Shown: piece after piece, positions 3,967 to 33,316 of the stretch
Layout of the letters: each line of letters begins with the position of its first letter
How positions within the stretch are numbered: the first letter of the stretch is position 1
DNA from: Stramenopiles sp. TOSAG23-6
Taxonomy: Eukaryota
NCBI GenBank assembly: GCA_900128565.1
Contig: LT635955.1
Coordinates: 1-33,316 of the forward strand
DNA length: 33,316 nt
Direction of reading: 5' to 3'
Notes under the pieces: model-generated
Seen by the model: the letters and a program-made list of their open reading frames with translations, nothing else
Told to the model about the DNA's origin: nothing
Database searches by the model: none
Made by a program: the position numbers and the translations under genes

Positions 3967-4546
3967 TCACATGCGTTATTATCCCTTTATTTATGTTTGT
4001 GTATTTTGGGGATTTTATGTGACCCCGTGTGATTTGACATTTTAATAAATAATTCGTGTGATTTGGCATATGAAGAAGTTTCAACTGTTTTATTATTAGA
4101 ATCTGTTCTTATGATGAGTATTTCTATATTGTATTAAATGCACCATGTATAATTACTAATTATATTGTTTCAAGTTTTTCTTCTTATTTTTTTGTTTAGA
4201 TTTGCGCTAGGTTAGGGTTAGGGTTATGATTCGATTTTTCGTGTTTACCGTTTACGTTTACAGAGAACGGTTTTGCTAATGTACAAAAGATACGTCGTCC
4301 CTACACAACGTCTTAAACTACCTCTAGTATATAATAATAATACGACGACAGTTACTAGAGTAGAGTGTACTTTCTCAAGTTTGTTGAGGTTGTCGAGTGC
4401 GTGGTTTACCTACTTGATTGGTATCGTCTATATCTATAGTCAATAGTGCAATAGTTGCGCAACTTTGCTTTAGAAGCATCCTTTGATCTAGTTTGATTAG
4501 TTGGAAAACAGAAACTTTCAGTTATATTAGCAATATAAGCCATAAA

Positions 4547-16330: not shown

Positions 16331-19300
16331 TTATCTTGAAGAACAACAATTAATACATGTTGAACTAGATTGAGAAACATCGTCAATCTTCCCAGTTGTA
16401 GCACATTGCGGAACATTTGCATTTTTATTGTTATCTGTTGATCGCAGACATGTCCATCCCCATTTATTTGGTCCACCTCTTGTATCTTCACATGATTCTT
16501 GTAATCTTTTGCGCGATATACAACCTGAACAATCTATACTTATCAAACTATAGCCTTCTAACGGTGACGACTTATCATTACCAACTTCAGTAAACTTATG
16601 CAAAGTAGAACAAGTTCCTAGAGTCGAAGTACCTAAAAGGTCTTGCAAAGCAGTCTTACTACAATCAGCTTCAAATGAAGTTATCATCCCCGAGTCACAT
16701 GTAGTACCAGAAAACCACTGAAGATTCAATCGAAGATTTGTTTCAGAGGCTTTTACCATCACAGAAATATTATTGCCAGCACCTGTACCTGCACCAGAGC
16801 AAACTCCCAACTGTAACACCGAGAATATTGCACTTGTGCCCACACAGTTCATGTCATTGGTAACAAAAAGACTAATGGTGATTTCATGAGGAGTGGTATC
16901 TGAGAGCAGTATTTTATCACCTATTTTGCCCCCATGAGGTTTACTAGTCCGAACATAAGTAAGAGTTGTGTTGGGAGATCCAACACTCAATGAATTCGAA
17001 TGAAGCTTCATCAATGTATCCACCTTCACTCCATATGGAGCCCCAGCATATGCCCCATCACTTCCATCGCTGCTAGTTTGTGATGCACCACCATCAACGA
17101 GCCAAGTGGCACTTGGGTCTGCAAATCGTAGAAATTGACCAATTGTAAACGTCTCAGTGTGATCACCCTGGACGTAAAAAGCATACGGACTTGGTTTAAC
17201 ACGTTCTTGTCCTTTTGATGATGTGTTTAATTGACTAATTGTCAGTCCTACAGACGTCCATAATGAAGTAGTGTGAAATTGACGACCTGAGAGGATCATT
17301 ACATTAAGGTGTGTTTGATTTGGTTTGACAGCTGTTGATGACCCTGGAACTGTAGCTTGTGTGGCAGCAGATGCAAAATCTTCAGCGTAACAGTATACAT
17401 TCAATGGTGTATGCATAGGGAGACCTGTAAGTTTCATACTCATTACATCACTTGCGTTTACAATATTAATATTTGAACCAAATCCAACTATACCACCTTC
17501 CCCAATTGCACCACCACCAGAAGCTTTTACCTGTGCTGTTGAAGGAACTTGCTTGTCTTTCTGAAAGGCTGCATCATCTGCATATGACTGCCAAATACCC
17601 GGTGACCATGTATTACTCTCCCACACACTAGGCGGCGAGGTTGCTGCACAATGTTTAGCCAGACTTGTACCAGCTGGTAAACTACTGTCGTACTTACCAG
17701 TGCATGTACCTCGAGACAAGCATGTCGTTTTGGATGTAAAACAAACAGATAAAGCCTTTGTTGGAAGATTTGTACCAGTGGCGGTATAACAAGTCCCACA
17801 TTGAGATTTTGAAGATGCACTTGCATCTGTTGTACACAACCCTTCTGGCTCCAGTGCAGCAGCACACCATACTTTAGACACCTCACTTACTTTTAGTTTG
17901 AGTTCGATCACCGATGCACTTACTATCTGTGTTCCTTCAAATTTCACGACTGGTGGAGTTACATCTGCTGAAACAATACTGACTTTAGAGCTTATTACTG
18001 CTGATGCAGATGTTTCAGTCGCAATCCTAGGAATAGAATTGACATTATCAGTTGATATGGGAGCATCTGTAGCAGTACAAAATAAATCATAGTTTTGTTG
18101 GTCATCTAAATTCAAGATTTTTATTGATCTAGTTGTAGAAGCAACAGTACCTAGTGTACCGCCACTTATAGCAGGACTATTGAGAGCACGACAACATCGA
18201 AAAGGCGTATATCCTGGAGCTAAATCAGCACTTCGTGTAAACGGCCGACCATGTGAGACGCCCCAATCTGGTTTTGGAATATTTGTTTCTGTTGCTGTAT
18301 AACATGATGTATTTTTTCCAGGACCCCCTGTATCTCCTACAGAGACCCATTCATTAAATGTGTCCCCTATAGGCGACCATGCTTCTACACCAGGAAAAGC
18401 ACCACCACATGGTATCGTTCCATCGCCTTTCGGACAATAATCAACTTTATTACATAACACACGCCCACGGGCAACGCAATAATTACGTGCAGCAATCCAG
18501 CCAAGGTATCCTTCATTCAGATACTGTACAGTAGCTAAAGCTGTATCGGCTGATAGTGGTGAGTTATTATTATTATTTACGGAATAAGAATAAGTACATG
18601 CTGAGTCTGCAGAATCAGGTAAAGGTCTCGCCAACGATACACAACGAGCAAATACCTGTGCACGTTTGTTTATTGCAGTAAAGCTACATGTATCATTCCA
18701 TTCACTTGAGGTTTTTGTAGGCTGTAATGAATGAAGCCCAGTACAACCTGCGGGATCAGTAGAATAACATGAGCAACCAACAGCCTCGTAATCCACTGGA
18801 CATATTGCTGATCGTAGGCCAGTGCATTGTCCAGGTGGCCCTGTTGAGTTACATGGTTGACTTTCCGCAACAGTTCCACCTATACTTACACCAACGAGCC
18901 CAGCATGCCTCCGACACGTCAAACGCGCGAATACTATAGTTGACGATGTAGCTGTAACAACGCATGTGTTCAAAGCCTTACCAGCATTGTCACCAATACC
19001 ATTATTATTAACATCTACATCCCATTTGGCACCATAGCAATCGGAGGGCACAGTACATTCACATTTGTAAGGAACCCATGAGACATTTTGCCCACTAGAA
19101 TCTTTGGAATCTTCGGGACATTTCGCTACACTATTGGTATCTACAATACCTTCACTTGGAGTTCCAGTTATCACTTGAAGCTCATCTGACGCAACCCAAC
19201 CACCATACCCTTTAATTTCTATATCAGCTATTGCTGAGAGAGACCCAACAGCTCCTCTATATCGTATAACTGTGTAACATTGGCGGAACTGTTTTGTTCT

Positions 19301-19906
19301 GCTGGATAACTCTGCTGAAATCCACTTGTTAGATTCTACACCATCATCCAGCATAGGTTTGCTTAATTTCTCATAAACACTATCTAGTTGTGTAGCACCC
19401 TCGAAAAATCCACCCTCAGTGGATACAGCACCACCACTACCATCACTTTTTCTTCGAAATTGAATCTCAGTAATGACATAACAACCGTTTAGTTGTAAAA
19501 CAACATATGCATTTGTATCAGTTCCTTCACCTTGGAAAAATGTATCTTTATCACCATCAAAAGCATTCGCATACGAAGTTGCATCACTCTTTCCAAATCC
19601 TGTGTATGTACCAGATAATTTATGAGCTGGACGGAAGACACCGCCACTAAATTGGTGTACTTGTATCGGAGTTGGAGGAGTGGCGCTATAGGAAGGTAAC
19701 ACTTCATCTGTTGTGACAGCGGTACACCAAGCATGGCCAGGTTCATTTAAAGTGACAGAAACAGACAAACTCCCACCTGATATAGCTGTGGTTGGGACAT
19801 CCAAACCAGTAAAAGATGGTGCACCTGAAAAAGTATTTGAAAATAAAGAAAGCGCAATAACCAAGAAAACTACTGCGAAATTGTTCCGAATAAAAGTATA
19901 TTGCAT
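16331..19906 (-). CDS. Secreted cysteine-rich protein with galactose-binding-like (F5/8C-type) domain
   Basis: Hydrophobic N-terminus (FAVVFLVIALSLFSNTFS), NAFDGDKDTFF discoidin-like motif, many Cys-rich modules (CPVDYEAVGCSC), and a repeated V..(N/S)E....WC.A...(Y)D(L/V)FC/YC module. No clear TM anchor. Confidence 0.75.
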   Translation of the reverse strand: MQYTFIRNNFAVVFLVIALSLFSNTFSGAPSFTGLDVPTTAISGGSLSVSVTLNEPGHAWCTAVTTDEVLPSYSATPPTPIQVHQFSGGVFRPAHKLSGTYTGFGKSDATSYANAFDGDKDTFFQGEGTDTNAYVVLQLNGCYVITEIQFRRKSDGSGGAVSTEGGFFEGATQLDSVYEKLSKPMLDDGVESNKWISAELSSRTKQFRQCYTVIRYRGAVGSLSAIADIEIKGYGGWVASDELQVITGTPSEGIVDTNSVAKCPEDSKDSSGQNVSWVPYKCECTVPSDCYGAKWDVDVNNNGIGDNAGKALNTCVVTATSSTIVFARLTCRRHAGLVGVSIGGTVAESQPCNSTGPPGQCTGLRSAICPVDYEAVGCSCYSTDPAGCTGLHSLQPTKTSSEWNDTCSFTAINKRAQVFARCVSLARPLPDSADSACTYSYSVNNNNNSPLSADTALATVQYLNEGYLGWIAARNYCVARGRVLCNKVDYCPKGDGTIPCGGAFPGVEAWSPIGDTFNEWVSVGDTGGPGKNTSCYTATETNIPKPDWGVSHGRPFTRSADLAPGYTPFRCCRALNSPAISGGTLGTVASTTRSIKILNLDDQQNYDLFCTATDAPISTDNVNSIPRIATETSASAVISSKVSIVSADVTPPVVKFEGTQIVSASVIELKLKVSEVSKVWCAAALEPEGLCTTDASASSKSQCGTCYTATGTNLPTKALSVCFTSKTTCLSRGTCTGKYDSSLPAGTSLAKHCAATSPPSVWESNTWSPGIWQSYADDAAFQKDKQVPSTAQVKASGGGAIGEGGIVGFGSNINIVNASDVMSMKLTGLPMHTPLNVYCYAEDFASAATQATVPGSSTAVKPNQTHLNVMILSGRQFHTTSLWTSVGLTISQLNTSSKGQERVKPSPYAFYVQGDHTETFTIGQFLRFADPSATWLVDGGASQTSSDGSDGAYAGAPYGVKVDTLMKLHSNSLSVGSPNTTLTYVRTSKPHGGKIGDKILLSDTTPHEITISLFVTNDMNCVGTSAIFSVLQLGVCSGAGTGAGNNISVMVKASETNLRLNLQWFSGTTCDSGMITSFEADCSKTALQDLLGTSTLGTCSTLHKFTEVGNDKSSPLEGYSLISIDCSGCISRKRLQESCEDTRGGPNKWGWTCLRSTDNNKNANVPQCATTGKIDDVSQSSSTCINCCSSR

Positions 19907-20332
19907 TGCCTTATTAGCCTATACGTATTTTATCTATATTGATTATGACCCTAAAGAAGCATTTAAAATGTCCAAAATTACAAACTATATGAAAGCAGAA
20001 GATGGCACATGTCTTTACCCTCTTACAAGTTATATCGGTCAGTAAGAAGTGTTCCTAGTATGAAAAGAGACTGATGATAGGGAAAAAAAGTGACCAACAG
20101 TTACGTTTAGGACCTTGATTACTAACAGACACAGATTGATTGCGATTGCATTGATTTTATTTCGTGTTGTCGTGTCGTCGTGTCAAACAAAAACGAATTT
20201 TTTCAGAGATGTGATTGGAAACTATCCTCCTGTTCTCGATATACGTACTGCTTTAGGTAATAAAGCTGACGGACGATCTCAGTTCGGTGTTTTAACTTTT
20301 GAGAATCTGTCCCAAGTGGATCATTTAAAAAT

Positions 20333-23300
20333 ATGGATGCTGATGCACATATAGCAATGAAAGAATATAGGGGTGATGATTTGGATTCCGACTCGGATTC
20401 TGATGACGCTGTGGACGAATCGATGGCTGTGGACGAATCGATGGCTTTGGACGAATCGATGGCTTTGGACGAATCGATGGCTTTGGACGAAGACGGGTCA
20501 AGCACTATTGCTGTAGGTGGTTTTACAACTTCTACCGATGAATTTGAAGAGCCACCAAAAGAAGAATCTAAAGGTTCAAACGAAGAGTATGGTATCGATG
20601 ATGATCTCGACGACTCTGATAGCGAGTCTTCCATAGCTGAATCCTCAGATTCCTCTTCTGAGAGTGAATCTGACGATCCTGCTACTGCTGTAACGCTAGG
20701 TTGGCGACAGAGCTCTCGTTCTCGCGGAGGGAGCAAAGTATCATACGCAGAAGTGAATGAAAATGGGAAGAAGATTAAGAAAAAGTGGCGAACGAAGAAA
20801 AAGTTAACGAAAGCAGATCGTCGGCGAATAGAACAAAGAAAATCTCTTCCAAAGAAACAACAAATTCTGATTCCTCCACCTGGCGCAAAGATTCCTTTAG
20901 CAATTGAGCGTATTCTTGGACGTCGAGAATACCACCCAGATAGTTCGCCATCTTCAACACGCCATGCAATGACGTCTTCTCCTACTCATTCTCACTCTCC
21001 GCGTAAACATTTTGGATCTGTCCCTCGAGAGCAATATTTGGTAAAATGGAAAAAACGCAGTTATATACATGCAACCTGGGAAGATGTTGACGTCCTCCTA
21101 TCTTGGCATCCAAAAGGTCCATCTAAAATGAAGCAATTGATCCAAATTTTCTTGAAGCGTCAAGAGCGTGATCGTTGGAGTGGTGCTGTTATCGAAGAAA
21201 ATAATTTTCCGCAAGAGTACATTGAACCTGAGAAACTTCTTGAGTGGAAAGATTTTACACCAGCAGCTTCAGAAAGTTCATCAGCTGTGGGTAAAACGTC
21301 CGATGTAAATGATAAAGAAAAGAACACTACGACATTAGAAATAACTATTCCTAAAGCTGCTGCGCTAGATCCAAATCGTAGCACTATGTATGTTTTATTT
21401 TTTTTTNAANTCGANTTTTTTTTCGTACNAANTTTTGTACCTAACAAAAAAAAAATGAAATATTTTTCCAAAACACATTGAAGAGGAATCACGACATCGA
21501 AGGCGACTTTACTTTGGTTCGAATGAACCTAAAGGACGTTGGTTTCTTGTGAAATGGCATGGTCTTCAACATGAGGAATGTACGTTTTTATTTGAATTTA
21601 AAAATTATTTTTCCTACCTTAAAAATTCAATTGTAGAAATATATTTTTAACTCTATTTTTTTCTACAATATTTTTTTACTATACATCAACGTGGGAGTCA
21701 GAGGCCAATTTAGTTCACACAGGAAGTTTTAAAACTGCATTAAACATATGGAAAACTCATCAAAGTGTTATTCAGTATAAGAAAGCACCACCTCGTCCAT
21801 CTGCCACCAGTTTCGTTAAAATGAATGAGTCACCGGTATACTCTACACGGAATGGTGTTGGTGGTAAAAAAATTCAATTAAAACTTCGCGATTATCAGCT
21901 CACAGGTGTTAATTGGTTGCTCTTTAATTGGTATAATCGTCGAGGGTCAATATTAGCAGATGAAATGTATGNTTTTTTTTTTTTTGTGTGATTTTTTTTT
22001 CGTACGAAATTTTGTACCTAACATTTTTTTAGATTTGTTTTTGAAATATTTTTCACAAGACATGGGGTTAGGTAAGACTATTCAAACAATTGCGTTTCTT
22101 CGTGCTCTTAGCTCTGGGAGAGATAGTCAAGTTCGAGGACCTTTTCTAATTGTTGGCCCATTATCATGTATTAATCAATGGTATCGTGAGGTATCAGAGT
22201 GGTGGTCAGAAGCGAACATTATTTTCTATCATGGTAACGCTGCATCACGTCGCGTCATCCAAGAATATGAATGGTGGAAACGGGAGAAGACTGGTGTAAA
22301 TACTCCGGAATATAACTTTCAAGTAGTTGTAACTACATATGAAATGTGTACAATGGATTCGACCTTTTTGAGACGGGTTCCTTGGCAATGTGTTGTAGTT
22401 GACGAAGCTCACCGTTTAAAGAACCCTAATTCCAAATTAGCTCTGGAGCTTAGTCAATATCATCGAGAACATGTTGTTTTGTTAACTGGGACTCCATTGC
22501 AAAATAATATGAGTGAATTATGGGCTTTATTACATTTCACTGATGCATCGAAATTTCCCAGTCTTGACAAATTTTTAGATAATTTTGGCAATTTGAAAAA
22601 TAAAGGGCACAAAGCTGTCTCGCAGCTCCATGAAGTGCTCCGGCCATTTCTTTTACGGCGTTTGAAAGAAAATGTAGAAAAAAATCTTCCGCCAAAGGAA
22701 GAGACTATTGTTGAAGTACCTCTTATGCCATTACAAAAACAGTATTATCGTGCTATTTATGAACGTAATACGGATTTTCTATATAAAGGCGCTACTGCGG
22801 CGAATGGACCATCATTGATGAATGTTGTTATGGAATTACGTAAATGTTGTAATCATCCATATCTTATTCGAGGTGCAGAAGAATGGTTATCCTCGGGTAT
22901 TGATCTGAATGATTCAAAGGCTATATTTAATAGATTGGTTGAAGTATCTGGAAAAGTTGTATTACTGGATAAATTGCTTCCCAAACTTAAGGCTGGTGGT
23001 CATAAAGTTTTAATATTTTCACAAATGGTGCGCATGCTGAATATTTTAGCTGATTGGACAAAACATAAAGGTTTTGATACGGAGCGGATCGACGGTAGTA
23101 TACGTGGTAGTGAACGTCAAAATTCGATTGATCGGTACATGCAATCTCCTGATTCATTTCTTATGCTTCTTTCTACTCGCGCAGGTGGTGTTGGTATTAA
23201 TTTAACTGCTGCTGATACTGTTATTATTTTTGATAGTGACTGGAATCCACAAAATGATATTCAAGCTATGGCGCGTGCTCATCGAATTGGTCAAACAAAA

Positions 23301-26300
23301 CCTGTCAAAATATATCGGTTGTTAACGGCTAAAACATTTGAAGTTGAAATGTTTGAAAGAGCTTCAATGAAGCTTGGTTTAGATCAAGCTGTTTTGACTA
23401 ATGTTAATGATGGTACAAAAAGTAGTGGTGGTAATAATGGACAACATAAGTTAAGTACATCTGAAGTTGATGGTCTGTTGAAGCGCGGTGCGTACTCAGT
23501 ATTTCAAGATAGCGGCGATCATGCGGAATCCAAAGAGTTCTGTGCTGACGATATTGATGGAATTCTTGCTCGCTCTTCTTACATCAAAAAAGAAGATAAA
23601 GAAACACAAGAAAAACGTAGTCAAGCGAATAAGTTTTCTACAGCATCGTTTGTATCCTCGACAGCTGGTGATGTCGATATTGATGACCCCGATTTTTGGT
23701 CTAAAACTGCGGGTTTAGCTGGACCAAAAGAAGACGAGACTGTCACCAAATCTAAGGAATTGCTTGATTTAGAAGAATCAGAAGAAGAACAAAGTGATTT
23801 TGAAGAGCTATCTGATGACGAGATTGATTTTTACGACGATAAAGTAGTACCCGGTTCTCGCGACTTTGAGACAAATTTAGCTCTTTGGGGTTATGGAAGA
23901 TGGAATAAGTTTAACGAGAATGGTACTCATTCGGAAGCGAAAGTAAAATCACTCGCTGCGAAAATTATTCAAGAGTATTATAATCTTGCCGATCGAAAAA
24001 TAGATGAATTTGCAATTGATAATAAAAATAGGCCTCTCATGAAACGCATTCGCTCTGTGATCGAATCAGAAGCCAATAAGAGTATTCCTGTATCTAATGA
24101 AAACCCCGACAAAATGGATATTGATAGTCCAAATGAAGCGGTACCTTCTTCTGAGAAACCATCAAAAGTTGCTGTTGATATTTCTGAGTTGCAGTGGATG
24201 CCAGAAACCAAAGTTACTCGTGCCGTTGCTTCATTGCACCGCCAAGAAATGATGTGGCATTTACAACAGATTGTTCGACGTGCTGTACTTAATCAAATTA
24301 GTGATTTACAGAGTGGCTCCGATGTTCTCGAAGAAGCAATACGGGGAATTTCTGATGGAGTTTTAGATGCTACTAAACTTTGTCGTGATTTGCAGAAACT
24401 AGCATGTCCTCGATCTTCAAAAGGTTACAAACAACCTGCATTTTGGTGGGGTAATGAAGAGGATGGAGCTCTTCTTCTTGGAGTATTTTTACATGGTTGG
24501 GGTAAACATACAGAAATTCGTAAGAATAAGTTATTTAGTTTACGACGAAAATATGAAGAGTTGAGATCTGCGACGTCTGTGTTTGGCAATGATGAACCCA
24601 AAATAAGCGAGGAGGAATTATTGGCCAGGAAAATTGCGGAACATGAAGTTGCTATTAAAAAGCAACGTGAAGTCGAGGAAGCTGAATGGGAGTCAATTGA
24701 AACTGCACGGGTTGCTTCGCTCCATGAAAGATTTAGTACAGGTCTCGCTAGTGTTGTTATGTTCAAGGGGAAACCCGTTCGTGTCCGATGTAAGTTAAAT
24801 AACAAGAAACTTAATGTTGACCCAGTACAGTTGTTTACTAAACGAAGCGTTCCTCCTCATGGTTGGCAATGGAAACGAGATAGTTTAAAGAAAATCGTAG
24901 TTAGTAAAACTGTTCCATGGCCTAGTGATGAAACTCTGAATAAATACACGTGTTGGCTTCTTACACGTACGAAACATATTTCTGGAAATTCTCGTGGCCA
25001 AGCGAGACGTGCGCGTAGTGAGAAGCGTCAATTAGATCATTTACGTAATTTAGCTATTCAAAAAGCTATTAATGAAAGTTCCTGGGGTAGGTCAGAAACC
25101 ACTGCATTGATACGCATTCTCTGTCGAGTTGGAGCACCACCTGATTTAGGTAAAGCAAATAAACATGCAGCAAAGGAAATGGAAAATGATGCCACTTCAA
25201 ATGTAGTAAATGTTCCTGACAACAATGAAGTATTAAAAGCTCCATCATTTAGTTGGAAGGCTATCGTAGAAGAGGCCCAGATTTCAGGGAAAACGCATAC
25301 GGATGCTTCGCGATATTTTTATGACGAGTTATTTCCCCATGCGGTAAGTGTAATAGAAGCTAATGTGCCGTTGAATCCACAAGGTTCTTCGACCATAATG
25401 CCCCAGCTTTCACCAACTGATTATTCCGAAAGAGGAGTTAGGATAGCAAAGAAATTTGTCGAGCGCATACGTATCTTACGCGCTTTACGCAAACTCTGTG
25501 GTATGACATCAGATAAAGGAGTTGGAAATTGCGATGATTTAAAAAAAATACTGCTATACGATGCCAATATAGAGGATGTTCCTGTGTGGTGGGTACCTAA
25601 AATTCACGATTTTGCTATGTGGGTACAACTGGCAAATCATGGATTTGAGAAGTCTGCTGGAAAAGGAAAGCGTGCCGAAGTAGTAGATATATACAAGCTT
25701 CAAATGGATAGCGCTTCACCATTTTTCACACCTACACTTGCGGCGCATGTCAAACAAGAATTTGAAAAGGTAAATGGTAAGGATTTTTTTATTAAAGGTT
25801 CTCCAAATTTGACCCCTGAAGCTATTGATGAAAATATTGCGAATTGGTTTTTTAAAGTTGCAACCGAAATGCCGTCTCCTAAAGAAAGTATGAAACGTCT
25901 TCGCCGCCATGTTGGAGTGGATTTAGTTTTGTTGGATGGTAAGGAAGTTCCAACTCTGAAAACTCTCGGTGGTGGTGGTGGTGGTTCTTTTTGCAAGCTG
26001 TGGCGAAAGTTGTCTGGTACTACTGCGAAACAACGAAGAAAAGGCGAGAAGAGACAGAGAAAGTCAGTCAAGGCATGTATTTCATGGATTATTACACAAA
26101 TTGAAAATGCGGAAAAAACGAAATTGAAAGAAGCTAGGGCTGCTCAACGTGCTGCAGACAGAGCCGCAAAACGAGATGAAAAAATAGCCAGGCTTGTAAA
26201 AGATAAACTTGACTCTATGATTCGTAAATTGGAAGGCGAAGAGCAAGCGGCACAAAGAAAAATTGTAGCTCAACAAAAAATAGTTTCTTCTGTTCTGTAT

Positions 26301-27470
26301 AGTATCATTCTGCGCGTTGAAAAATTGGAACGGGCCGATAAGAGGGCGAAAGATCGTGAGTTTTTACGCAATGCTAAAGCACACGAGAGAGAAAAAATAA
26401 ATTTGATCAATGCTCAAATTCGAGCACATCGTAGCATGATGAATAAAAAAAGAAAGAAGAAAGGACCACGCGGGAAGGTTTCTCTTCATGGTCTCATCAC
26501 AGCGGGCCTTCTTGTACCTGGAACTGGCGTCTTTTATATTGATTACCGGGATAAACAGTTTAGAGCTTCTTTAGCAGAAGATGGCACTTTGATCGATGAT
26601 GAAACAGGCGAAAAGTTTCTTACTCCTTCCGGTTGGAGTATTAAAGCGAAACGTCGTCTCATGCCTTCAAAACAAGCAGATGATGGCTGGAAGAGTGTTA
26701 AATATGAAGGTTCTGCTTTGGAACTTGTGAAAAAAGACTATCTCATTAATATTTTAGGACCAATGAATGGCATTCCTCCACCGCCTCCTGAAGAAAGTGT
26801 TTGCGTTGAAGATGAAGAGAGGTTATCAGAGCTTCTTAATTTAAAAGAAACTCTTGAAGCTGAAGCAATTGCGAATAAGGGAAAACCTCGACCTCTCCCA
26901 GCGAATCCTAAAATGACTATAACGTTTTCAAAGAGACCTTCTGGTGGATGGACGGCTGTGCCTTTTAAGAGTGGAAATAAAAAGCGACCAAGAAACGACA
27001 GTCTAGGTGGCTCTGCAAATAAAAAGTCAAAGACTGGAAATGGTATATCAAAATCTCATAGTAATAATACATTTGTATCCGGTCTAGGTCGAAAAAAGAG
27101 AAAGCCGAGTGGCTCCGCCGAAAAGAAGAAGAAAAAGAAAAAGAAGAAAAGAAAGAAGGCTAGTGATGCTAAAATTGACCATTCAATTGCAGTACAACAC
27201 AATTTGGCTTTATGGAAAAAATGGAATAGTCAATTACGCCGATCATCGAAATATGGAAGTACGACTGATGTCATGAATATGCTGGAAAAGTTAAAAAATA
27301 GTAAGGTTGCTTCTTTGTCGGTTCTTTCGGAAGTTGGCATTGGGAAAACTGTTGGAAAGTTGGCTCGCAAGCATGCTGATGAAAGTATTCGCCAGACAAG
27401 TGAACTTTTAGTGAAACGATGGCGTGAAGCTGCTCAAGCTGAGACAAATGGAATTACTGGTGGGATTTAG
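20333..27470 (+). CDS. CHD-family (CHD6-9/Kismet-like) chromatin remodeller. Exons 20333-21387, 21479-21579, 21687-21966, 22064-27470
   Basis: Chromodomain 1 (QYLVKWKKRSYIHATWE), chromodomain 2 (WFLVKWHGLQHEE/STWE), LRDYQLTGVNWLLFNWYNRRGSILADE/MGLGKT, DEAH box, LLSTRAGGVGINL, DSDWNPQNDIQAMARAHRIGQ. C-terminal RAMA and TFIIS-N-like domains. The frame is restored by removing three GT-AT inserts. Confidence 0.93.
20408..20491 (+). repeat. 18-bp coding minisatellite (A(V/L)DESM x about 4.7)
   Basis: gct(g/t)tggacgaatcgatg repeated at 20408, 20426, 20444 and 20462, partial at 20480. Confidence 0.93.
21388..21478 (+). other. Non-canonical GT-AT intron A (91 nt) in CHD gene
   Basis: actAT|GTATG...ttttgTACCTAAC...gaaatatttttccaaaacaCAT|tgaa joins NRST-I-EEESRH in frame with chromodomain 2. 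An in-frame AG exists about 24 nt downstream but would skip two nearer AGs. Confidence 0.8.
21580..21686 (+). other. Non-canonical GT-AT intron B (107 nt) in CHD gene
   Basis: gaggaAT|GTACG...aatatttttttactataCAT|caacgtgg restores chromodomain HEE-S-TWESE. Nearby AG acceptors give TAA (21636), a frameshift (21697) or TAG (21701). Confidence 0.88.
21967..22063 (+). other. Non-canonical GT-AT intron C (97 nt) in CHD gene
   Basis: gatgaaAT|GTATG...tttcgtacgaaattttgTACCTAAC...gaaatatttttcacaagaCAT|ggggttaggtaag restores the invariant ILADE-M-GLGKT. The AGs ending at 22032 and 22059 are out of frame. Confidence 0.93.
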
Positions 27471-27602
27471 TTATATTTCATTTCAGATAAAATTATTTTC
27501 AAGTAATACAGTATTTTTATGGGCTCAATGATAAGTTTATTGTATTATATGTGACGTATATTTTTCTCTGCGCTGTAATCAAAATAGTTAGTAGTGATAT
27601 AT

Positions 27603-29060
27603 TTATGTCATTGTCTTTGTGCTCTTCTGTCGCATCATTTGAAGAAATTCACTGTAGTCAACTTCTGAGTCGTCCCCTCCGACTTCAAGGAGCATTTTTT
27701 GTACCTTTTCATCATCATACTGAACACCTAGAACCTGTTGTAGATCTTCTTTTGAAATGGCACCACTTCCGTCAACGTCAAGTTTTGTGAATGCTTCCTT
27801 GAGCCGTGCTTCATCCATGTACGTTTTTTGGTCTAGACAAGCAGTCACAAATTCAGATAACTCCAATTTGCCATCATTTGTTGCATCTAAACCTTGGAAT
27901 ATTTTATCTACTTCAGCCTCGGTTATTGCACCTGTTTTTGTGATGGCATCTCGAAGTTCATGCATCGTAACAAATCCATCGTAGTTTGTATCCATGGCTA
28001 AGAATTGTGCTTGTATTTCTTGAATCTGACTTGGAGTTAGACTGAAAGCAACAGTTGCAACGGCCATTCTTTTAAATTCATTCAAGTTCTTGAATTTAAT
28101 CATATTTTCACAAATTTCTCTATTTAGTTGAACTTGTGGGTGATCAGCTTGTTCTTTGATGATCCATTTGTGATTCAACGCTTGTCGTGCTGTAAGGCGT
28201 TTTGATGGATCTTTTACTAACAGCTTATTAATAAAGTCTTTCCCATCATCTGAGACTTTTCCCCATACAGGAGAGAACATTGTATATTCACCTATCCTTA
28301 CGTTTGAAATAATCTCAGAATCTGTCTCTCCAGGAAAAGGAGGGTTACCTGATAAAAGCATGTACGTAATCACACCAATTGACCAGAGATCGCACGCGGA
28401 GGTGTATTCGTGGTCAAGGACTTCAGGGGCAATGTAATAGGATGTCCCAACAACAGAAGCCATCTTTGTACTTGACATACATTTTACTCTTTTGGAAAAC
28501 CCAAAATCAATCATTTTTAGAACGCTATCTTCTGCCTTGGTTGCAAATATGAAGTTCTCTAATTTGAGATCTCTGTGAACCATATTTTTGTTGTGAATAT
28601 AATTCAAAGACTGCAGCATCTGTAAAACAACATTTGCTGCAGCAGCCTCATTGAAGCGCGAGTTTTCAGAGTCTAGTAGTCGATCAAATAACTCACCTCC
28701 CGTGCAAAGCTCCATAATCATATACATATTTTGGCCCGTTTCTTCAAATGCTTCGTACAAACGCGCAACATTTGGGTGATCCATTGAAGCAAACAATGTA
28801 ATTTCATCACGTATTTGCTTCAAGCTAGTGGCACTATTCGAACCAATTTTCATTACTTTTAGAGCAAACTTCTGGCCATCGCTTCTACGAGAAACGATCG
28901 AAACTTTACCTGAGACACCTTCTCCCAAGAAATCTGTATTGTCAACTCCAGAATACTTTTTCCGAATTGCAGCGCAGTCACAAATATGATACTTCACAAG
29001 ATTTTCGTGCATTGTTCTGTTTTCATTTGAAATAGCTGCCTTTCCTCCACATATTCCCAT
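27603..29060 (-). CDS. Calcium-dependent protein kinase (CDPK)
   Basis: MGICGG (likely myristoylation/palmitoylation), LGEGVSGKV, HRDLKLENF, DFG, GTSYYIAPEVL, a junction region and four EF-hand-like loops (DTNYDGFVTMHE, DATNDGKLELSE, DVDGSGAISKED, DDSEVDYSE). Intronless. Confidence 0.95.
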   Translation of the reverse strand: MGICGGKAAISNENRTMHENLVKYHICDCAAIRKKYSGVDNTDFLGEGVSGKVSIVSRRSDGQKFALKVMKIGSNSATSLKQIRDEITLFASMDHPNVARLYEAFEETGQNMYMIMELCTGGELFDRLLDSENSRFNEAAAANVVLQMLQSLNYIHNKNMVHRDLKLENFIFATKAEDSVLKMIDFGFSKRVKCMSSTKMASVVGTSYYIAPEVLDHEYTSACDLWSIGVITYMLLSGNPPFPGETDSEIISNVRIGEYTMFSPVWGKVSDDGKDFINKLLVKDPSKRLTARQALNHKWIIKEQADHPQVQLNREICENMIKFKNLNEFKRMAVATVAFSLTPSQIQEIQAQFLAMDTNYDGFVTMHELRDAITKTGAITEAEVDKIFQGLDATNDGKLELSEFVTACLDQKTYMDEARLKEAFTKLDVDGSGAISKEDLQQVLGVQYDDEKVQKMLLEVGGDDSEVDYSEFLQMMRQKSTKTMT

Positions 29061-29372
29061 AATTGGTTGCTTGGATAACGTCAGCAGTTACCGGTGAAAT
29101 TAAGTTTATGATTCGATAGAGGAGTATTTGAAGAAGGGTACCAGTTGACGTTGAACGTCGATCTTCTTGGACGTATGTAAGATCTGAAGATCTTTGATTT
29201 TAAACTGAAAAAAAAACTATTGATTTCGTGTATTCGGAGAAGAGTCCAACCAATTCGTAACTGTTGCTGTTCTAGTATTCTTTCTTTTCCTTCTTGTTTA
29301 GAGCAAGTCAAGAAGTCCTCAATGAGTCATTGCATACACTAATTGTTTCTCCTATTGCATTATCTCAGGGCC

Positions 29373-30934
29373 ATGCCCCCTAAATCAGATCGCTATGTGA
29401 AGTTGTCAAAGGAAGATCAGGGAATTTTTGTTCCACGACCTATTGAGCAGCAAGTGAGACGAGATGCTTACAACCCAATGAGTGTTGATGACTTTCTAGA
29501 TGAATATGAGGAAAAGTATATGGACGAAGATTTTATGGCTGTTGTTGCAGATGGAAAACTTACTAATACGGAAAGGCTTAAAATGCAATTGCGTAAGGAG
29601 AACGGTAAATATAAACGGGTAAATTTAACAAGTCAAATAATGTCAAGAGCAGAAAATATAAGGGGAAAGGAGTTGCAGGAAGTTAAAAAAGAATTTAAGA
29701 TGAAAACGTTTCATGAGAAACAGAAACGTCGAATTTCTATAGCAACAACTAATGAACCATTAGCAAAAAAAATATTACGTTTTTTATCATGTGGCCCAAC
29801 ACCAGGGAAACTACCACATCCAAAAGTTCAAGCAAAATTTCTACCTAAAATTGTTCGTGCTGACTATGTACGTTTTCATCTCAATTTTTTGTCTAAATAT
29901 TTTTTTCATACGAAATTTTGTACCTAACATTTTTTTTTTTTGAAATATTTTTTCATAATCCATGACTCGGTTTCAAAGGCTTTGAAGTTCAACCAACCAG
30001 TGAATTATTGCGACAACTTGAATCGATCTGGTTTATATTTAGCAACATTCTATGGTTATACACATATAGTTCAGCTTCTTTGCGCATATAATGCTGATCC
30101 AAACATATGTGAACTTGAAAAGGAACAAAATGCAGGGCATGTGGCCGCAGAAAAAGGCTATGGTGACATTCTAGATTATTTATTAGACCGAGGTTTAGAT
30201 TTAACAATGGGAGACAAAATGGGTCTCACCCCCTTAATGCATGCAGCTAATGCGGGTCATTATAAAACATGCATAATGATGTATGTTTTATTTTTTTTTT
30301 TAAACAAAAAATCGAATTTTGTTTTCGTACGAAATTTTGTATTTAACAAAAATATTGAATGTAAAATATTTTTCAAAATACATAGTGGAATGTGATATTA
30401 AGATAGACATGGTCGATAATAGGCGGTGGACAGCCTTGCATTATGCAAGTCAAAAAGGGTTTTATAGAATCTGTAAATATTTGGCCGCGCAAGGATGTAC
30501 GTTTTCATAATGAATTTTTACGAAATTGTTTTTTCGTACTAAATTTCGTACCTAACATTTTTTTTACTAAAAAAAAAATATTTTTCACATTACATGGGAC
30601 TCATATTGTAAAGACATGAATGGGCAAACACCATTAGATATTGCAGAGATGGAGCTAGATAATATTATAAAAAGTGCGTTTCGTTGATGAATTTCAAATT
30701 AATTTTGTTTTTATACGAAATTTTGTATTAATACCTAACGAATCTCGAATCTAAAATAATGTTCACAATTTATGTACTCGAGGATTATCCCCTGAAGAAG
30801 CAAAACTTTTCAATGAGAAAAATGCAATTATGATAGAAAACTATGAAAATGTAATAAATGTGCTTAATACTGATATGACTGATTGGAGAGCAGTTGAAGA
30901 ATTAAAGAGACAAAAAGAATTAAACAATAGGTAA
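29373..30934 (+). CDS. Ankyrin-repeat protein. Exons 29373-29867, 29964-30280, 30384-30496, 30596-30673, 30774-30934
   Basis: After removing four inserts there is a continuous ORF with consecutive ankyrin repeats (RSGLYLATFYG, QNAGHVAAEKG, LTPLMHAANAGH, WTALHYASQKG, GQTPLDIA) ending at TAA 30932-30934. Confidence 0.85.
29868..29963 (+). other. Non-canonical GT-AT intron D (96 nt) in ankyrin gene
   Basis: gactAT|GTACG...cgaaattttgTACCTAAC...gaaatattttttcataatcCAT|gactcg contains an in-frame TAA and joins RAD-Y-DSVSKAL. An in-frame AAG at 29978 is possible but would delete 5 residues of the ankyrin-like helix. Confidence 0.75.
30281..30383 (+). other. Non-canonical GT-AT intron E (103 nt) in ankyrin gene
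   Basis: atgAT|GTATG...ttttcgtacgaaattttgtatttaac...aaaatatttttcaaaataCAT|agtggaa gives GHYKTCIMIVECDIKIDMVDNRRWTALH with exact ankyrin spacing. The adjacent AG (30384-30385) leads to TGA three codons later. Confidence 0.88.
30497..30595 (+). other. Non-canonical GT-AT intron F (99 nt) in ankyrin gene
   Basis: caaggAT|GTACG...tttcgTACCTAAC...aaaatatttttcacattaCAT|gggactca gives GWDSYCKDMNGQTPL, matching the spacing of G-A-D-V-N-A-K-D-x-x-G-x-T-P-L. Contains an in-frame TAA. An in-frame AG at 30613 would delete 6 residues of the repeat. Confidence 0.85.
30674..30773 (+). other. Probable GT-AT intron G (100 nt, divergent family member)
   Basis: aaaa|GTGCG...tatacgaaattttgtattaaTACCTAAC...aaaataatgttcacaattTAT|gtactcga has the same motif-to-end spacing as the other copies. 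An in-frame GAG acceptor at 30782 is an alternative. Confidence 0.65.
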
Positions 30935-31004
30935 AATATATCAATAAATTATCGTAAATTTCGAAAAAAAATTAAAAATACAAATGTCATTACAAATTAA
31001 TCTA

Positions 31005-31865
31005 TTAAATTCCCATTCCTCCAGTGACTTCTAATATTGTTCCCGTTACATAAGACGCATGAGGTGAAACCATCATTAATACACCACCTGCTGCTTCTTC
31101 TGGTGTACCAATACGTGCAAGAGGTATACTCGCAGCGATAGCTTGATCACTCGCGACAATACCACGTGACTTCGAAGGCATTCCCTGAACAACTTCTTCA
31201 CCATTCGCTAACACTACAGTTTCAATTTCTCCTTCATCTGCAGCCTGGGTCATTCGAGTATCTATCCAACCATATGCAACAGCATTACATCGAATGCCAA
31301 AGGACCCCCACTCTTTTGCGACAGTACGAGTAAGTCCTAATATAGCAGTCTTACCTGAGGCATAGTTTGCCTGACCAATACTACCATGAAGACCAGATGT
31401 AGATGATATATTGATTATACAACGATCTGCAGGGTCAATACCAGAAGATTTCTCCTGTTTTCCTATTTCACGCATATATGGAGTGGCAGCTCGGATCATC
31501 TTAAAAGGAACAGTAGCGTGCATATCAATGATAGACTGCCACTGTTCGTTACTCATTTTGTGCAACATTCCATCCCAAGTAAAACCAGCGTTGTTCACAA
31601 GTACATCCACTGAACCTTTACCAAATATAGGATTTGTTGCGGCCAATTGCATGAGTGTATCTGGGAAGTCCTCTTCTAAGACACTACCAGGAAATGCAAG
31701 TGCCTGGCCACCAGCGTTGTTAATTTCCGCAACGACTGCTTCGGCAGGTTCTTTGCTAACGTCATTGACGACAACAGACGCACCTTGTCTAGCTAATAAT
31801 TTAGCAGTTGCCGCACCAATTCCTCGACCAGCACCTGTTACTATGGCAACTTTTCCAGTGAGCAT
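31005..31865 (-). CDS. Short-chain dehydrogenase/reductase (3-oxoacyl-ACP reductase-like)
   Basis: TGAGRGIG, NNAG, catalytic S and YASGK (YxxxK), GIRCNAVAYGWIDT, IPLARIGTPEEAA. Intronless. Confidence 0.93.
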   Translation of the reverse strand: MLTGKVAIVTGAGRGIGAATAKLLARQGASVVVNDVSKEPAEAVVAEINNAGGQALAFPGSVLEEDFPDTLMQLAATNPIFGKGSVDVLVNNAGFTWDGMLHKMSNEQWQSIIDMHATVPFKMIRAATPYMREIGKQEKSSGIDPADRCIINISSTSGLHGSIGQANYASGKTAILGLTRTVAKEWGSFGIRCNAVAYGWIDTRMTQAADEGEIETVVLANGEEVVQGMPSKSRGIVASDQAIAASIPLARIGTPEEAAGGVLMMVSPHASYVTGTILEVTGGMGI

Positions 31866-32752: not shown

Positions 32753-33316
32753 AACCTGGTTGATCCTGCCAGTAGTCATACGCTCGTCTCAAAGATTAAG
32801 CCATGCATGTGTAAGTATAAACAATTTTATACAGTGAAACTGCGAACGGCTCATTATATCAGTTATAGTTTATTTGATAATACCTTACTACTTGGATAAC
32901 CGTAGTAATTCTAGAGCTAATACATGCATTAAATTCTCTTCTTCTGGTGGAGATGCGTTTATTAGATATCAACCAACCCTTTTCGGAGGCCTTTGGTGAG
33001 TCATAATAACTGTGCGGATCGCAGAGGCCTTTGTGCCGGCGATGAATCATTCAAGTTTCTGCCCTATCAGCTTTCGATGGTAGTGTATTGGACTACCATG
33101 GCGGTGACGGGTAACGGAGAATTAGGGTTCGATTCCGGAGAGGGAGCCTGAGAAATGGCTACCACATCCAAGGAAGGCAGCAGGCGCGTAAATTACCCAA
33201 TCCCAATTCGGGGAGGTAGTGACAATAAATATCAATGCGGGGCACACAGTGTCTTGCAATTGGAATGAGTACAATTTAAATCCCTTAACGAGGATCGATT
33301 GGAGGGCAAGTCTGGT
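32753..33316 (+). rRNA. 18S rRNA: 18S (SSU) rRNA gene, 5' part (3'-truncated by window)
   Basis: Starts AACCTGGTTGATCCTGCCAGTAGTCAT, and contains conserved GATTAAGCCATGCATG, CCGGAGAGGGAGCCTGAGA, CCAAGGAAGGCAGCAGGCGCG and GAGGGCAAGTCTGGT. The CATACGCTCGTCTCAAAG variant suggests a stramenopile. Confidence 0.99.

What the first reader, a model, noticed from the sequence alone, without database searches (positions are those of the whole stretch)
21950..22085. Decisive case: intron C splits the Met codon of the invariant SNF2 motif ILADEMGLGKT
Upstream reads tta gca gat gaa AT| and downstream |G ggg tta ggt aag act. Only removal of exactly 97 nt restores ADEMGLGKT (helicase motif I). Both internal AGs give frameshifts, and the next in-frame AG would delete the Walker A motif. 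The rest of the ATPase is intact, arguing against a pseudogene. This fixes the excision length independently of any splice-site assumption.
Basis: partly seen in the sequence, partly recalled or inferred. Interest (0 to 1): 0.88.

Follow-up and report, generated by a model that had tools for sequence, protein, structure and literature searches.

The report
Mobile intron family ending in AT
A 97-base insert that splits the ATP-binding motif of a chromatin-remodeller gene in a marine stramenopile is one copy of a repeated, probably mobile intron family whose members start with GT but end with AT instead of the near-universal AG, although no spliced transcript has yet been seen.

Summary
Exon 3 of a CHD-type SNF2 gene ends ...GAT GAA AT at 21966 and exon 4 starts G GGG TTA GGT AAG ACT at 22064. 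Only removal of 97 nt (21967-22063) restores ILADEMGLGKT. Both internal AGs shift the frame, and the first in-frame AG deletes the Walker A motif.

The insert is not a one-off. It is one of at least 7 related T-rich inserts of 91-107 nt in the window: 3 in the CHD gene and 4 in an ankyrin gene. All 7 lie on the sense strand inside coding sequence and would truncate the protein if retained. They share a 5' GTAYGT (GTGCGT in K4) and end in AT; six also share a 12-nt palindrome-like core and a TACCTAAC branch-site-like box. Removing each as GT...AT gives single open frames that align without gaps to orthologues at 6 of 7 junctions.

The site is uninterrupted in 66 of 67 related metagenome loci. 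AG is strongly depleted inside the inserts (3 observed, 17.9 expected).

My best reading is an introner-like intron family with a non-AG 3' splice site. This is a new variant of a known kind, and I found no description of it for MAST-3-like stramenopiles.

The main weakness is that no spliced junction was seen. Four RNA runs covered the locus too thinly, and they hold many unspliced copies of the family.

The parts
20333..21387 (+). CHD gene exon 1, from the first ATG of the frame; holds chromodomain 1
   Evidence: ORF list. Pfam Chromo, E 1.9e-6. Colinear with P0002.
21388..21478 (+). Intron A: family copy, 91 nt, GTATGT...ACACAT, phase 2; holds 5 Ns
   Evidence: nhmmer E 9.5e-15. Frame restored. 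The flanking protein region is poorly conserved, so this junction is not checked by homology.
21479..21579 (+). CHD exon 2 (start of chromodomain 2, ...GRWFLVKWHGLQHEE)
21580..21686 (+). Intron B: 107 nt, GTACGT...TATACAT, phase 1. It has the family's ends, but its interior is diverged.
   Evidence: The family register gives HEE-S-TWE. A register 4 nt to the right (GT..AC) gives HEE-C-TWE, as in P0002 and P0009.
21687..21966 (+). CHD exon 3, ending ...[10 protein letters not shown] + AT
21967..22063 (+). Intron C (the finding): 97 nt, GTATGN...CAAGACAT, phase 2, 21% G+C
   Evidence: (E 1.3e-15).
21998..22009 (+). TTTCGTACGAAA, a 12-nt perfect palindrome that forms the family core
   Evidence: Read; family alignment. 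One search found no conserved fold: 6 predicted pairs in the whole element, none compensatory.
22010..22023 (+). TTTTGTACCTAACA box, a branch-site-like CTAAC; its branch A lies 42 nt from the 3' end
   Evidence: Exact in 3 copies and with 1-2 mismatches in 2 more. Distance to the 3' end is 34-42 nt in the six family copies A, C and K1-K4; intron B has two CTAAC-like matches, at 36 and 65 nt.
22031..22032 (+). Internal AG 1; using it removes 66 nt and shifts the frame
22058..22059 (+). Internal AG 2, 4 nt before the inferred 3' end; using it removes 93 nt and shifts the frame
22046..22063 (+). 3' tail ATATTTTTCACAAGACAT: a T tract, then C(-10)A(-9), then terminal CAT
   Evidence: C(-10)A(-9) occurs in 6 of 7 copies and terminal AT in 7 of 7.
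22064..27470 (+). CHD exon 4: the rest of motif I, the SNF2 ATPase, Helicase_C, and RAMA and Med26/TFIIS-N-like domains, through the stop codon
   Evidence: Pfam SNF2-rel_dom E 3.4e-69, Helicase_C 1.2e-24, RAMA 1.3e-21, Med26 3.7e-8.
29373..30934 (+). Neighbouring ankyrin-repeat gene that carries four more family introns
   Evidence: The spliced product aligns without gaps to P0145 at all 4 junctions.
29868..29963 (+). Intron K1: 96 nt, GTACGT...ATCCAT, phase 0
   Evidence: nhmmer E 3.4e-14.
30281..30383 (+). Intron K2: 103 nt, GTATGT...ATACAT, phase 2. An AG lies directly after it in the exon; using it would shift the frame.
   Evidence: nhmmer E 6.8e-15.
30497..30595 (+). Intron K3: 99 nt, GTACGT...TTACAT, phase 1; restores the conserved Trp codon T|GG
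   Evidence: nhmmer E 6.2e-18.
30674..30773 (+). Intron K4: 100 nt, GTGCGT...ATTTAT, phase 1. It is the most diverged copy, and the exon ends AA rather than AT.
   Evidence: nhmmer E 5.3e-16.

Best explanation
Intron C is a lineage-specific, introner-like intron. It is one copy of a short (91-107 nt), T-rich, multi-copy element that has entered coding sequence of a MAST-3-like stramenopile.

Each copy brings its own signals:
- a U2-type-looking 5' splice site (GTAYGT; GTGCGT in the most diverged copy, K4);
- in the six family copies, a conserved core made of a 12-nt palindrome-like segment and a TACCTAAC branch-site-like box (intron B has only CTAAC-like matches);
- a T tract;
- a 3' end that is CAT (TAT in one copy) rather than YAG.

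The copies sit behind an exonic AT in 6 of 7 cases, so the element plus one AT is removed. This is the pattern expected if AT is a 2-nt target-site duplication or a preferred target.

What is shown: the family, its shared ends, and that exact removal restores conserved proteins.

What is inferred: the pre-mRNA is cut at AT|GTAYGT and after ...YAT| by the spliceosome, joining 21966 to 22064 and rebuilding the Met codon of ADEMGLGKT. AG inside the element is selected against because it would compete as a 3' site. How AT is chosen, and whether the major or the minor spliceosome does it, remains open.
For: - **Family.** Six copies were found by profile scan with E 3e-14 to 6e-18, all on the + strand. 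A seventh, B, has the same 11-nt 5' end and the ACAT 3' end.
- **One rule fits all copies.** All 7 begin GT and end AT. With these cuts the CHD gene gives one 2280-aa frame and the ankyrin gene gives one frame, although the lengths are 91-107 nt and the phases are 2,1,2,0,2,1,1.
- **Junctions fit orthologues without gaps at 6 of 7 sites.** B and C fit P0002 and other CHD homologues. K1-K4 fit P0145, including the Trp codon split by K3.
- **Retention would truncate.** Read-through hits a stop in or just after the insert in 7 of 7.
- **The site is uninterrupted in relatives.** ADEMGLGKT is contiguous in the DNA of 66 of 67 related loci, and none of the 80 loci holds the element.
- **Orientation and placement.** All 7 copies are sense and inside coding sequence. 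No significant antisense or intergenic copy lies in the 33 kb.
- **AG depletion.** AG occurs 3 times against 17.9 expected in 693 nt, while GA occurs 21 times; 0 of 10,000 shuffles reach 3 or fewer.
- **The genes are otherwise intact.** The ATPase matches SNF2-rel_dom at E 3.4e-69.
- **The family is large.** Hundreds of contigs in 4 marine RNA runs match the element core, and several diverge exactly at the element's 3' end, at 21478 and 29964.
Against: - **No spliced junction was seen.** In one search (4 RNA runs, Logan contigs) the exons were covered at depth about 2-7. None of the 15 joints shown links 21966 to 22064 or spans any other intron of the stretch; 23 further joints were not shown.
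- **Unspliced copies are present in the same RNA libraries.** Many contigs contain the element, and some run from its 3' end into flanking sequence. These could be pre-mRNA, DNA carry-over or poor splicing.
- **Protein searches found no transcript-derived product across a junction**.
- **Intron C has an AG 4 nt before the inferred 3' end.** An ordinary spliceosome would be expected to prefer it.
- **The register is not fixed.** AT..AC fits 5 of 7 copies. For B, a different register (GT..AC) reproduces the Cys found in the two nearest orthologues.
- **Transposon hallmarks are weak.** The terminal inverted repeats are only 4-6 nt, read from the listed ends; one search reports one end-to-end pair, a 9-nt, 89% match in K2, among the three copies scanned. 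There is no conserved fold.
- **The sample is small.** There are only 7 copies, in 2 genes, and they are related by descent, so the counts are not independent.
Confidence: 0.7

Rival explanations
1. The introns are the same, but they are cut in the AT..AC register, or otherwise by the minor (U12-type) spliceosome. The minor spliceosome tolerates non-AG 3' ends and measures the 3' site by distance from the branch site.
For: - The AT direct repeat allows an AT..AC reading in 5 of 7 copies.
- GT-AT and AT-AN pairs are spliced by the U12 machinery: GT-AT makes up 17% of Physarum's non-canonical introns, most of them U12-type (passages read).
- GTATGTTTT matches the U12 GT-subtype consensus as I recall it, GTATCCTTT, at 7 of 9 positions.
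- C(-10)A(-9) after the T tract is at a fixed distance from the 3' end in 6 of 7 copies.
- Blastocystis carries hundreds of mostly AT-AC minor introns with fast turnover (passages). That it is a relatively close stramenopile relative is my recall.
Against: - K1 (AT..CC) and K4 (AA..TT) fail the AT-AC register, whereas GT..AT fits 7 of 7.
- Positions +5 and +6 of the 5' site (G/T rather than C/C) miss the most constrained U12 positions.
- In the six family copies the best-conserved branch-like box lies 34-42 nt from the 3' end, not 10-20 nt.
- No minor snRNA could be looked for, because no genome is held and the window holds none.
Confidence: 0.15
2. The copies are recent MITE-type insertions that are not removed. 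The two genes would then be fresh pseudogenes, or insertion alleles from one of the co-assembled cells.
For: - Removing an element plus one copy of its target duplication always restores the frame, so the 97-nt argument alone cannot exclude this.
- Unspliced copies are abundant in RNA libraries, and no junction was seen.
- All 10 Ns in the window lie inside introns, which could reflect differences between cells there.
Against: - Seven insertions lie in two genes with no other defect, including a 5.4-kb frame without a stop.
- All 7 are sense and in coding sequence, with none intergenic or antisense.
- Each copy carries 5' splice-site and T-tract signals, and six carry the branch-site box.
- AG is depleted.
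- The copies have diverged from one another, so they are not very recent, yet the host frames remain intact.
Confidence: 0.08
3. The elements are cut out of DNA (programmed elimination, as in ciliate eliminated sequences), or are removed from RNA by a non-spliceosomal, structure-guided route (as proposed for euglenid or Amoebophrya non-conventional introns).
For: - The ends are non-canonical and flanked by a short direct repeat.
- Non-canonical introners with direct repeats are described in Amoebophrya (passages).
Against: - There is no conserved helix joining the ends: the consensus fold is -1.5 kcal/mol with 0 compensatory pairs.
- There is no consistent exon-intron complementarity. Only 2 of 14 tests had p at or below 0.05, and they fell at different places.
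- Inverted repeats are 4-6 nt, against 8-20 nt in Amoebophrya.
- The GTAYGT and CTAAC signals point to the spliceosome.
- DNA elimination is not known in stramenopiles (my recall).
Confidence: 0.05

Closest known systems
Introner elements / introner-like elements (Micromonas, Aureococcus, dinoflagellates such as Polarella and Symbiodinium, fungi)
   Same: - Short, multi-copy, sequence-similar introns at non-homologous, lineage-specific positions.
- Each copy carries part of its splice signals, and a short direct repeat at the borders means that the element plus one repeat is removed exactly.
- No phase preference.
- Sources: (passages).
   Different: - In the passages I read, the described families use AG 3' sites; the 5' site is GT, GC or GA, and the surveys list 5' GT/GC/GA/AT and 3' AG/AC as the accepted boundaries. 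Here the 3' end is AT in 7 of 7.
- The terminal inverted repeats here are only 4-6 nt.
- The surveys start from annotated introns and discard families with unfamiliar splice sites that lack transcript support, so they would miss a family like this one.
Amoebophrya non-canonical introner elements
   Same: Both are repeated introns with non-GT-AG borders and short direct repeats that overlap the exon/intron boundary. Standard gene finders mis-model both.
   Different: - Amoebophrya elements have 8-20-nt inverted repeats that form a hairpin joining the ends, 3-5-nt direct repeats, and no single boundary pair.
- Here the pair is uniform (GT..AT), the repeat is 2 nt, and there is no conserved hairpin.
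U12-type introns with GT-AT termini (human, mouse, Physarum)
   Same: The GT..AT terminal pair is used and is known to be spliceable, and the 5' site is T-rich from position +7.
   Different: - Those introns are rare single cases with a (G/A)TATCCTT 5' site and a branch site 9-12 nt (Physarum) or, from my recall, 10-20 nt from the 3' end.
- Here the 5' site is GTAYGT, the conserved box lies 34-42 nt upstream in the six family copies, and the introns form a repeat family.
Ordinary U2-type GT-AG introns
   Same: - The same 5' GTAYGT, CTAAC-type branch box and T tract.
- Branch-to-3' distance of 34-42 nt in the six family copies.
- AG avoidance between the branch and the 3' site.
   Different: - The last base is T rather than G in all 7 copies.
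- In intron C, an AG 4 nt upstream must be skipped.

Membership tests
Introner / introner-like element | Many sequence-similar introns at unrelated positions | tested here: met
   Six copies at E 3e-14 to 6e-18, plus B, in two unrelated genes. Hundreds of contigs carrying the element core occur in 4 RNA runs.
Introner / introner-like element | Intron position is lineage-specific (absent from orthologues) | tested here: met
   - For C, 66 of 67 related loci are uninterrupted in DNA.
- Orthologous proteins are colinear across B, C and K1-K4, but whether those proteins come from genomes or transcripts is unknown.
Introner / introner-like element | Removed from the transcript by splicing | tested here: inconclusive
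   In one search the locus was covered at depth 2-7, no joint across any of the 6 introns was listed, and unspliced copies were present. Searches found no junction-spanning protein.
Introner / introner-like element | Transposon hallmarks (target-site duplication, terminal inverted repeats) | tested here: inconclusive
   An AT direct repeat occurs in 6 of 7 copies. Terminal complementarity is only 4-6 nt, read from the listed ends; one search reports one end-to-end pair (9 nt, 89%, in K2).
Introner / introner-like element | Conventional splice boundaries (GT/GC/GA...AG), as in the described families I read about | tested here: not met
   The boundary is GT..AT in 7 of 7. Every AG choice tested shifts the frame or deletes motif I (for intron C; by reading for introns A, B and K2).
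U12-type (minor) intron | 5' site (G/A)TATCCTT | tested here: not met
   The sites are GTATGTTTT, GTACGTTTT and GTGCGTTTC, so positions +5 and +6 differ. The consensus comes and from recall.
U12-type (minor) intron | Branch site TCCTTAAC about 10-20 nt from the 3' end | tested here: not met
   In the six family copies the TACCTAAC box lies 34-42 nt from the end. Only a weak TTTTTCA motif sits at -9.
U12-type (minor) intron | Minor snRNAs present in the genome | not testable with these tools
   No genome is held for this window. The only Rfam match in the window is 18S rRNA.
Amoebophrya-type or euglenid-type non-conventional intron | Stable pairing that brings the two intron ends together | tested here: not met
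   The consensus fold has 6 pairs in the core only, at -1.5 kcal/mol, with 0 compensatory pairs.
CHD subfamily of SNF2 ATPases (the host gene) | Tandem chromodomains followed by an SNF2 ATPase with intact motif I | tested here: met
   Pfam matches are Chromo, SNF2-rel_dom and Helicase_C. Motif I is intact only after the 97-nt removal.

The most novel reading that the evidence does not exclude
An uncultured marine stramenopile lineage (MAST-3-like) carries a large mobile intron family that is routinely spliced at a non-AG (AT) 3' site. This would mean its spliceosome has a second mode of 3'-site choice, set by the element's own signals or by distance rather than by AG. Alternatively, this would be the first introner family handled by the minor spliceosome. 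Either way, standard annotation of these genomes would be systematically wrong, and introner surveys would be blind to such families.
Probability: 0.45. Interest if true: 0.85.

Novelty: new variant of a known kind. Interest (0 to 1): 0.72.

Why it matters
If these inserts are spliced as inferred, three things follow.

- **Splice-site rules.** It would be a natural case in which a whole intron family uses AT instead of AG as the 3' splice site. That bears on how the second step of splicing picks its site.
- **Reach of mobile introns.** It would extend transposon-driven intron gain to introns that gene finders and introner surveys cannot see. Those surveys start from annotated introns and drop families with unfamiliar boundaries that lack transcript support.
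- **Existing annotation.** The public gene model of this very locus (P0005) drops RRGSILADE from motif I and translates intron sequence instead. Gene counts and 'pseudogene' calls for such single-cell genomes may therefore need revisiting.

The expected junction is precise (21966^22064), so one RT-PCR or a read search would settle it.

Tried and rejected
**RNA evidence**
- The look-up of sequencing runs listed 7 runs, each holding 0.06-0.16 of the sampled words.
- Read laying on 21433-31300 with 4 RNA runs gave exon contigs at depth 2-7 with 0-3 mismatches. None of the 15 joints shown spans an intron, and 23 joints and 2473 pieces were not shown.
- One 197-nt contig of run X3 stops matching at 30278, 2 nt before K2, and has 27 further letters that I could not see.

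**Junction-spanning proteins**
- Exon 3 of the CHD gene, searched against longer proteins, returned only the mis-modelled P0005 at high identity.
- Exon 2 of the ankyrin gene, searched at near lengths, returned nothing.

**More copies of the element**
- There are none in the 80 related metagenome loci.
- There are 0 exact matches to the 23-nt core in genome contigs or viral contigs.
- No whole genome is held for this window.
- Earlier notes of this scan held nothing.

**Canonical splicing**
- Every AG tested for intron C shifts the frame or deletes motif I.
- Other nearby GT or GC donors give no better solution.

**Structure-guided removal**
- There is no conserved fold.
- There is no consistent exon-intron pairing. 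The 8-nt complement between TACCTAAC and the exon sequence GTTAGGTA in intron C is not repeated in other copies.

**Rfam**
- The window matches only 18S rRNA.

**Literature**
- I found no paper on non-canonical introns or introners in MAST-3 or Incisomonas (searches; passages read).
Full report
**1. What is in the sequence**

The + strand frame that encodes ...[27 protein letters not shown] runs to GAA at 21964 and is followed by AT at 21965-21966. Then come 97 nt, GTATGN...TTTTTCACAAGACAT (21967-22063). The long frame resumes at 22064 with G GGG TTA GGT AAG ACT, that is (M)GLGKT.

With GT at 21967 as donor, the AGs ending at 22032 and 22059 remove 66 and 93 nt, and both shift the frame. So do the AGs ending at 22071 and 22076. 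The first in-frame AG ends at 22111 and deletes MGLGKTIQTIAFLRAL. No other GT or GC donor nearby helps.

Two caveats apply:
- ATG occurs at both borders, so four cut registers give the same mRNA: AT..AC, TG..CA, GT..AT and TA..TG.
- Base 21972 is an N in a T run, so 97 is the assembled length.

**2. The host gene**

The downstream frame (22062-27470) matches SNF2-rel_dom (E 3.4e-69, profile positions 26-290 of 290), Helicase_C, a RAMA domain and a Med26/TFIIS-N-like domain. The upstream frame holds a chromodomain.

The nearest database proteins are stramenopile CHD proteins. One of them, P0005, carries a source name that begins GSMAST32. Over most of its length it is letter for letter the product of this locus. 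Other near hits are P0002 (78% identity over the ATPase) and P0009 (59%). I recall P0009's name prefix as Incisomonas, but no call tested that. I therefore take the organism to be a MAST-3-like (Nanomonadea-like) stramenopile.

P0005 reads ...LLFNWYN|HLFLKYFSQDMGLGKT. It drops RRGSILADE and translates the 3' end of the insert, as a pipeline restricted to GT-AG would.

**3. The insert belongs to a family**

The 14-nt box TTTTGTACCTAACA occurs 5 times on the + strand with up to 2 mismatches, against 0.48 expected; 0 of 100 shuffles reach 5. A profile built from the copies finds six of them at E 3e-14 to 6e-18, all on the + strand, and nothing significant elsewhere. A seventh insert, B, shares the 11-nt 5' end and the ACAT 3' end, but its interior has diverged.

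| Copy | Gene | Coordinates | Length (nt) |
|---|---|---|---|
| A | CHD | 21388-21478 | 91 |
| B | CHD | 21580-21686 | 107 |
| C | CHD | 21967-22063 | 97 |
| K1 | ankyrin | 29868-29963 | 96 |
| K2 | ankyrin | 30281-30383 | 103 |
| K3 | ankyrin | 30497-30595 | 99 |
| K4 | ankyrin | 30674-30773 | 100 |

The consensus, from 5' to 3', is:
- AT|GTAYGTTTT;
- a variable T/A-rich stretch;
- TTTCGTACGAAA, a 12-nt palindrome;
- TTTTGTACCTAACA;
- T/A runs;
- ATATTTTTCA, then seven or eight variable bases, ending in AT (CAT in 6 of 7).

G+C is 16-24%.

**4. One rule restores every frame**

I cut each copy before GT and after the terminal AT.

- The CHD gene then becomes a 6843-nt CDS with a single frame of 2280 aa.
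- The ankyrin gene also becomes a single frame.
- Lengths modulo 3 are 1,2,1,0,1,0,1 and phases are 2,1,2,0,2,1,1. The fit therefore does not come from a 3n bias. Given C, the chance that the same element-relative cuts fit the other six frames is about (1/3)^6; this figure is my inference.
- The spliced CHD product matches P0002 in one BLASTP segment (residues 125-1760) that crosses all three junctions. The multiple alignment is gapless at B and C. The region around A is too variable to judge.
- A full-library search with ankyrin exon 1 found two orthologues. The spliced ankyrin product aligns to P0145 without gaps at all four junctions. This includes KTCIM-I-VECDI at K2 and AAQG-W-DS at K3, where the Trp codon is split T|GG.
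- Read-through of each insert meets a stop in or just after it, in 7 of 7.

**5. The site is uninterrupted in relatives**

- Of the 120 homologous proteins listed, 110 carry contiguous ADEMGLGKT and 3 carry GDEMGLGKT.
- Three begin at the Met. One of these, P0001, is this locus.
- P0005 is the mis-model, and 3 lack the motif.
- Of the 80 related metagenome loci (best identity 65%), 67 hold GLGKT on the matched strand, and 66 of those have ADEMGLGKT contiguous in DNA. The exception, L008, is interrupted at a different point.
- None of the 80 loci holds the element.

**6. Signs that the spliceosome is involved**

- All 7 copies are in the sense orientation and inside coding sequence. No copy is antisense or intergenic in the 33 kb.
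- In 6 of 7 copies the 5' end is the U2-type hexamer GTAYGT; K4 has GTGCGT.
- The best-conserved internal box contains CTAAC, 34-42 nt from the 3' end in the six family copies, and is followed by a T tract; B has two CTAAC-like matches, at 36 and 65 nt.
- AG is strongly depleted: 3 observed against 17.9 expected in 693 nt, while GA occurs 21 times. None of 10,000 shuffles reaches 3 or fewer. Five of the 7 copies have no AG at all. The copies share descent, so this overstates independence, but the variable parts lack AG too. AG avoidance suggests that AG is still read as a 3' site in this organism.
- One probable ordinary GT-AG intron (7869-7808, minus strand, 62 nt) lies in another gene. A GT..AT cut (7865-7801) is also in frame there.

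**7. What does not fit, or is missing**

- No spliced junction was seen. In one search, four RNA runs held exon contigs at 0-3 mismatches but at depth of only 2-7.
- The element regions drew hundreds of contigs, with summed depth of about 2,850-6,040 in three of the four runs (22-58 in X7). Most matched only the core, 21992-22023.
- Several contigs run through the element's 3' end into unrelated sequence. These loose ends lie at 21478 (6 contigs in X1) and at 29964 (6 contigs in X3).
- This shows a large family whose homology stops exactly at the inferred 3' cut. It also shows unspliced copies in RNA libraries, which could be pre-mRNA, DNA carry-over or inefficient splicing.
- Intron C has an AG 4 nt before the inferred end. 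An ordinary spliceosome should favour it.
- The AT..AC register fits 5 of 7 copies.
- For B, a GT..AC register gives the Cys seen in P0002 and P0009, where the family register gives Ser. P0006 has Ser at that position.
- Terminal inverted repeats are only 4-6 nt, read from the listed ends; one search reports one end-to-end pair, 9 nt at 89%, in K2. There is no conserved fold and no consistent exon-intron pairing.

**8. Mechanism proposed**

- **Shown:** a repeated element with fixed ends interrupts two intact genes, and removing it exactly restores conserved proteins.
- **Inferred:** the element spreads into AT sites (the exon ends in AT in 6 of 7 copies). This happens either by transposition with a 2-nt duplication or by reverse splicing with a target preference. 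Each copy supplies a 5' site and a T tract, and six also supply the branch box. The second splicing step takes place after the terminal YAT, so the element plus one AT leaves the mRNA.
- **Open:** how AT is selected. The C(-10)A(-9) motif at a fixed distance from the end (6 of 7 copies) hints at measurement by distance, as in U12-type introns. U12-type introns are known to accept GT-AT. However, the 5' site and the position of the main box look U2-type.

**9. Comparison with known systems, and novelty**

The closest known kind is the introner. In the passages I read, described introner families use GT, GC or GA at the 5' end and AG at the 3' end. The Amoebophrya non-canonical introners have long inverted repeats and no single boundary pair. 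GT-AT is known only as a rare, scattered, mostly U12-type pair.

I found no paper that mentions non-canonical introns or introners in MAST-3 or Incisomonas (searches; passages read). Supplements were closed.

**Verdict**

The interpretation as an intron is likely (about 0.85 that the 97 nt are removed from the mature mRNA; 0.7 for the full explanation), but it is not proven at the RNA level. I file it as a new variant of a known kind.

Noticed in passing
window 7810, 7820, 7827, 7835, 21407, 21410, 21415, 21429, 21432, 21972: All 10 Ns in the window lie inside inferred introns: 4 in the minus-strand intron at 7869-7808, 5 in intron A and 1 in intron C. This suggests either length or sequence differences between co-assembled templates at introns, or trouble in the T runs.
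   Followed up: partly
window 20303-22100 versus protein P0005: The public gene model of this locus (P0005) is mis-modelled. It removes a conserved 42-aa stretch of exon 1 as an intron, skips STWESEANLVHTGS and RRGSILADE, and translates the intron-derived HLFLKYFSQD (compared).
   Followed up: partly
window 32753-33316: The window ends in the first 565 positions of a eukaryotic 18S rRNA gene (Rfam, 534 bits). This could place the organism precisely.
   Followed up: no
window 7808-7869, minus strand: This is a probable ordinary GT-AG intron (AG|GTGAGT...NAG|, 62 nt) in an LRR-protein gene. It holds TTTTTTNGTACAAAAA, which resembles the family core, and a GT..AT cut (7865-7801) is also in frame.
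   Followed up: partly
window 22015-22022 and 22067-22074: The branch-like box TACCTAAC in intron C is perfectly complementary to GTTAGGTA in exon 4, which forms the GLGK codons. The same codons also spell AGGTAAG, which looks like a 5' splice site. No other copy shows this complementarity, so it is probably chance.
   Followed up: yes
window 26400-27470 (C-terminal part of the CHD protein): This CHD protein carries a RAMA domain (E 1.3e-21) and a Med26/TFIIS-N-like domain (E 3.7e-8) at its C-terminus. Its two nearest relatives, P0002 and P0005, have them too. This is an unusual architecture for a CHD protein.
   Followed up: no
window 21992-22023, 29900-29964, 30279-30310: Four marine RNA runs hold hundreds of contigs that match the element core (767, 682, 859 and 31 contigs laid, most of them here). 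The family, or close relatives of it, is therefore abundant in the sea. Some joints run from an element's 3' end to an element's 5' end; these may reflect short exons between two copies at other loci.
   Followed up: partly
window 27603-29087 (minus strand) and 16331-19918 (minus strand): The neighbouring genes have no family introns. One is a calcium-dependent protein kinase with four EF-hands that starts MGICGG. The other is a 1195-aa Cys-rich protein with a DUF7495 domain.
   Followed up: no
window about 20400-20500: Exon 1 of the CHD gene encodes a tandem DESMA(V/L) repeat, visible in the translation. No tandem-repeat tool was run on it.
   Followed up: no
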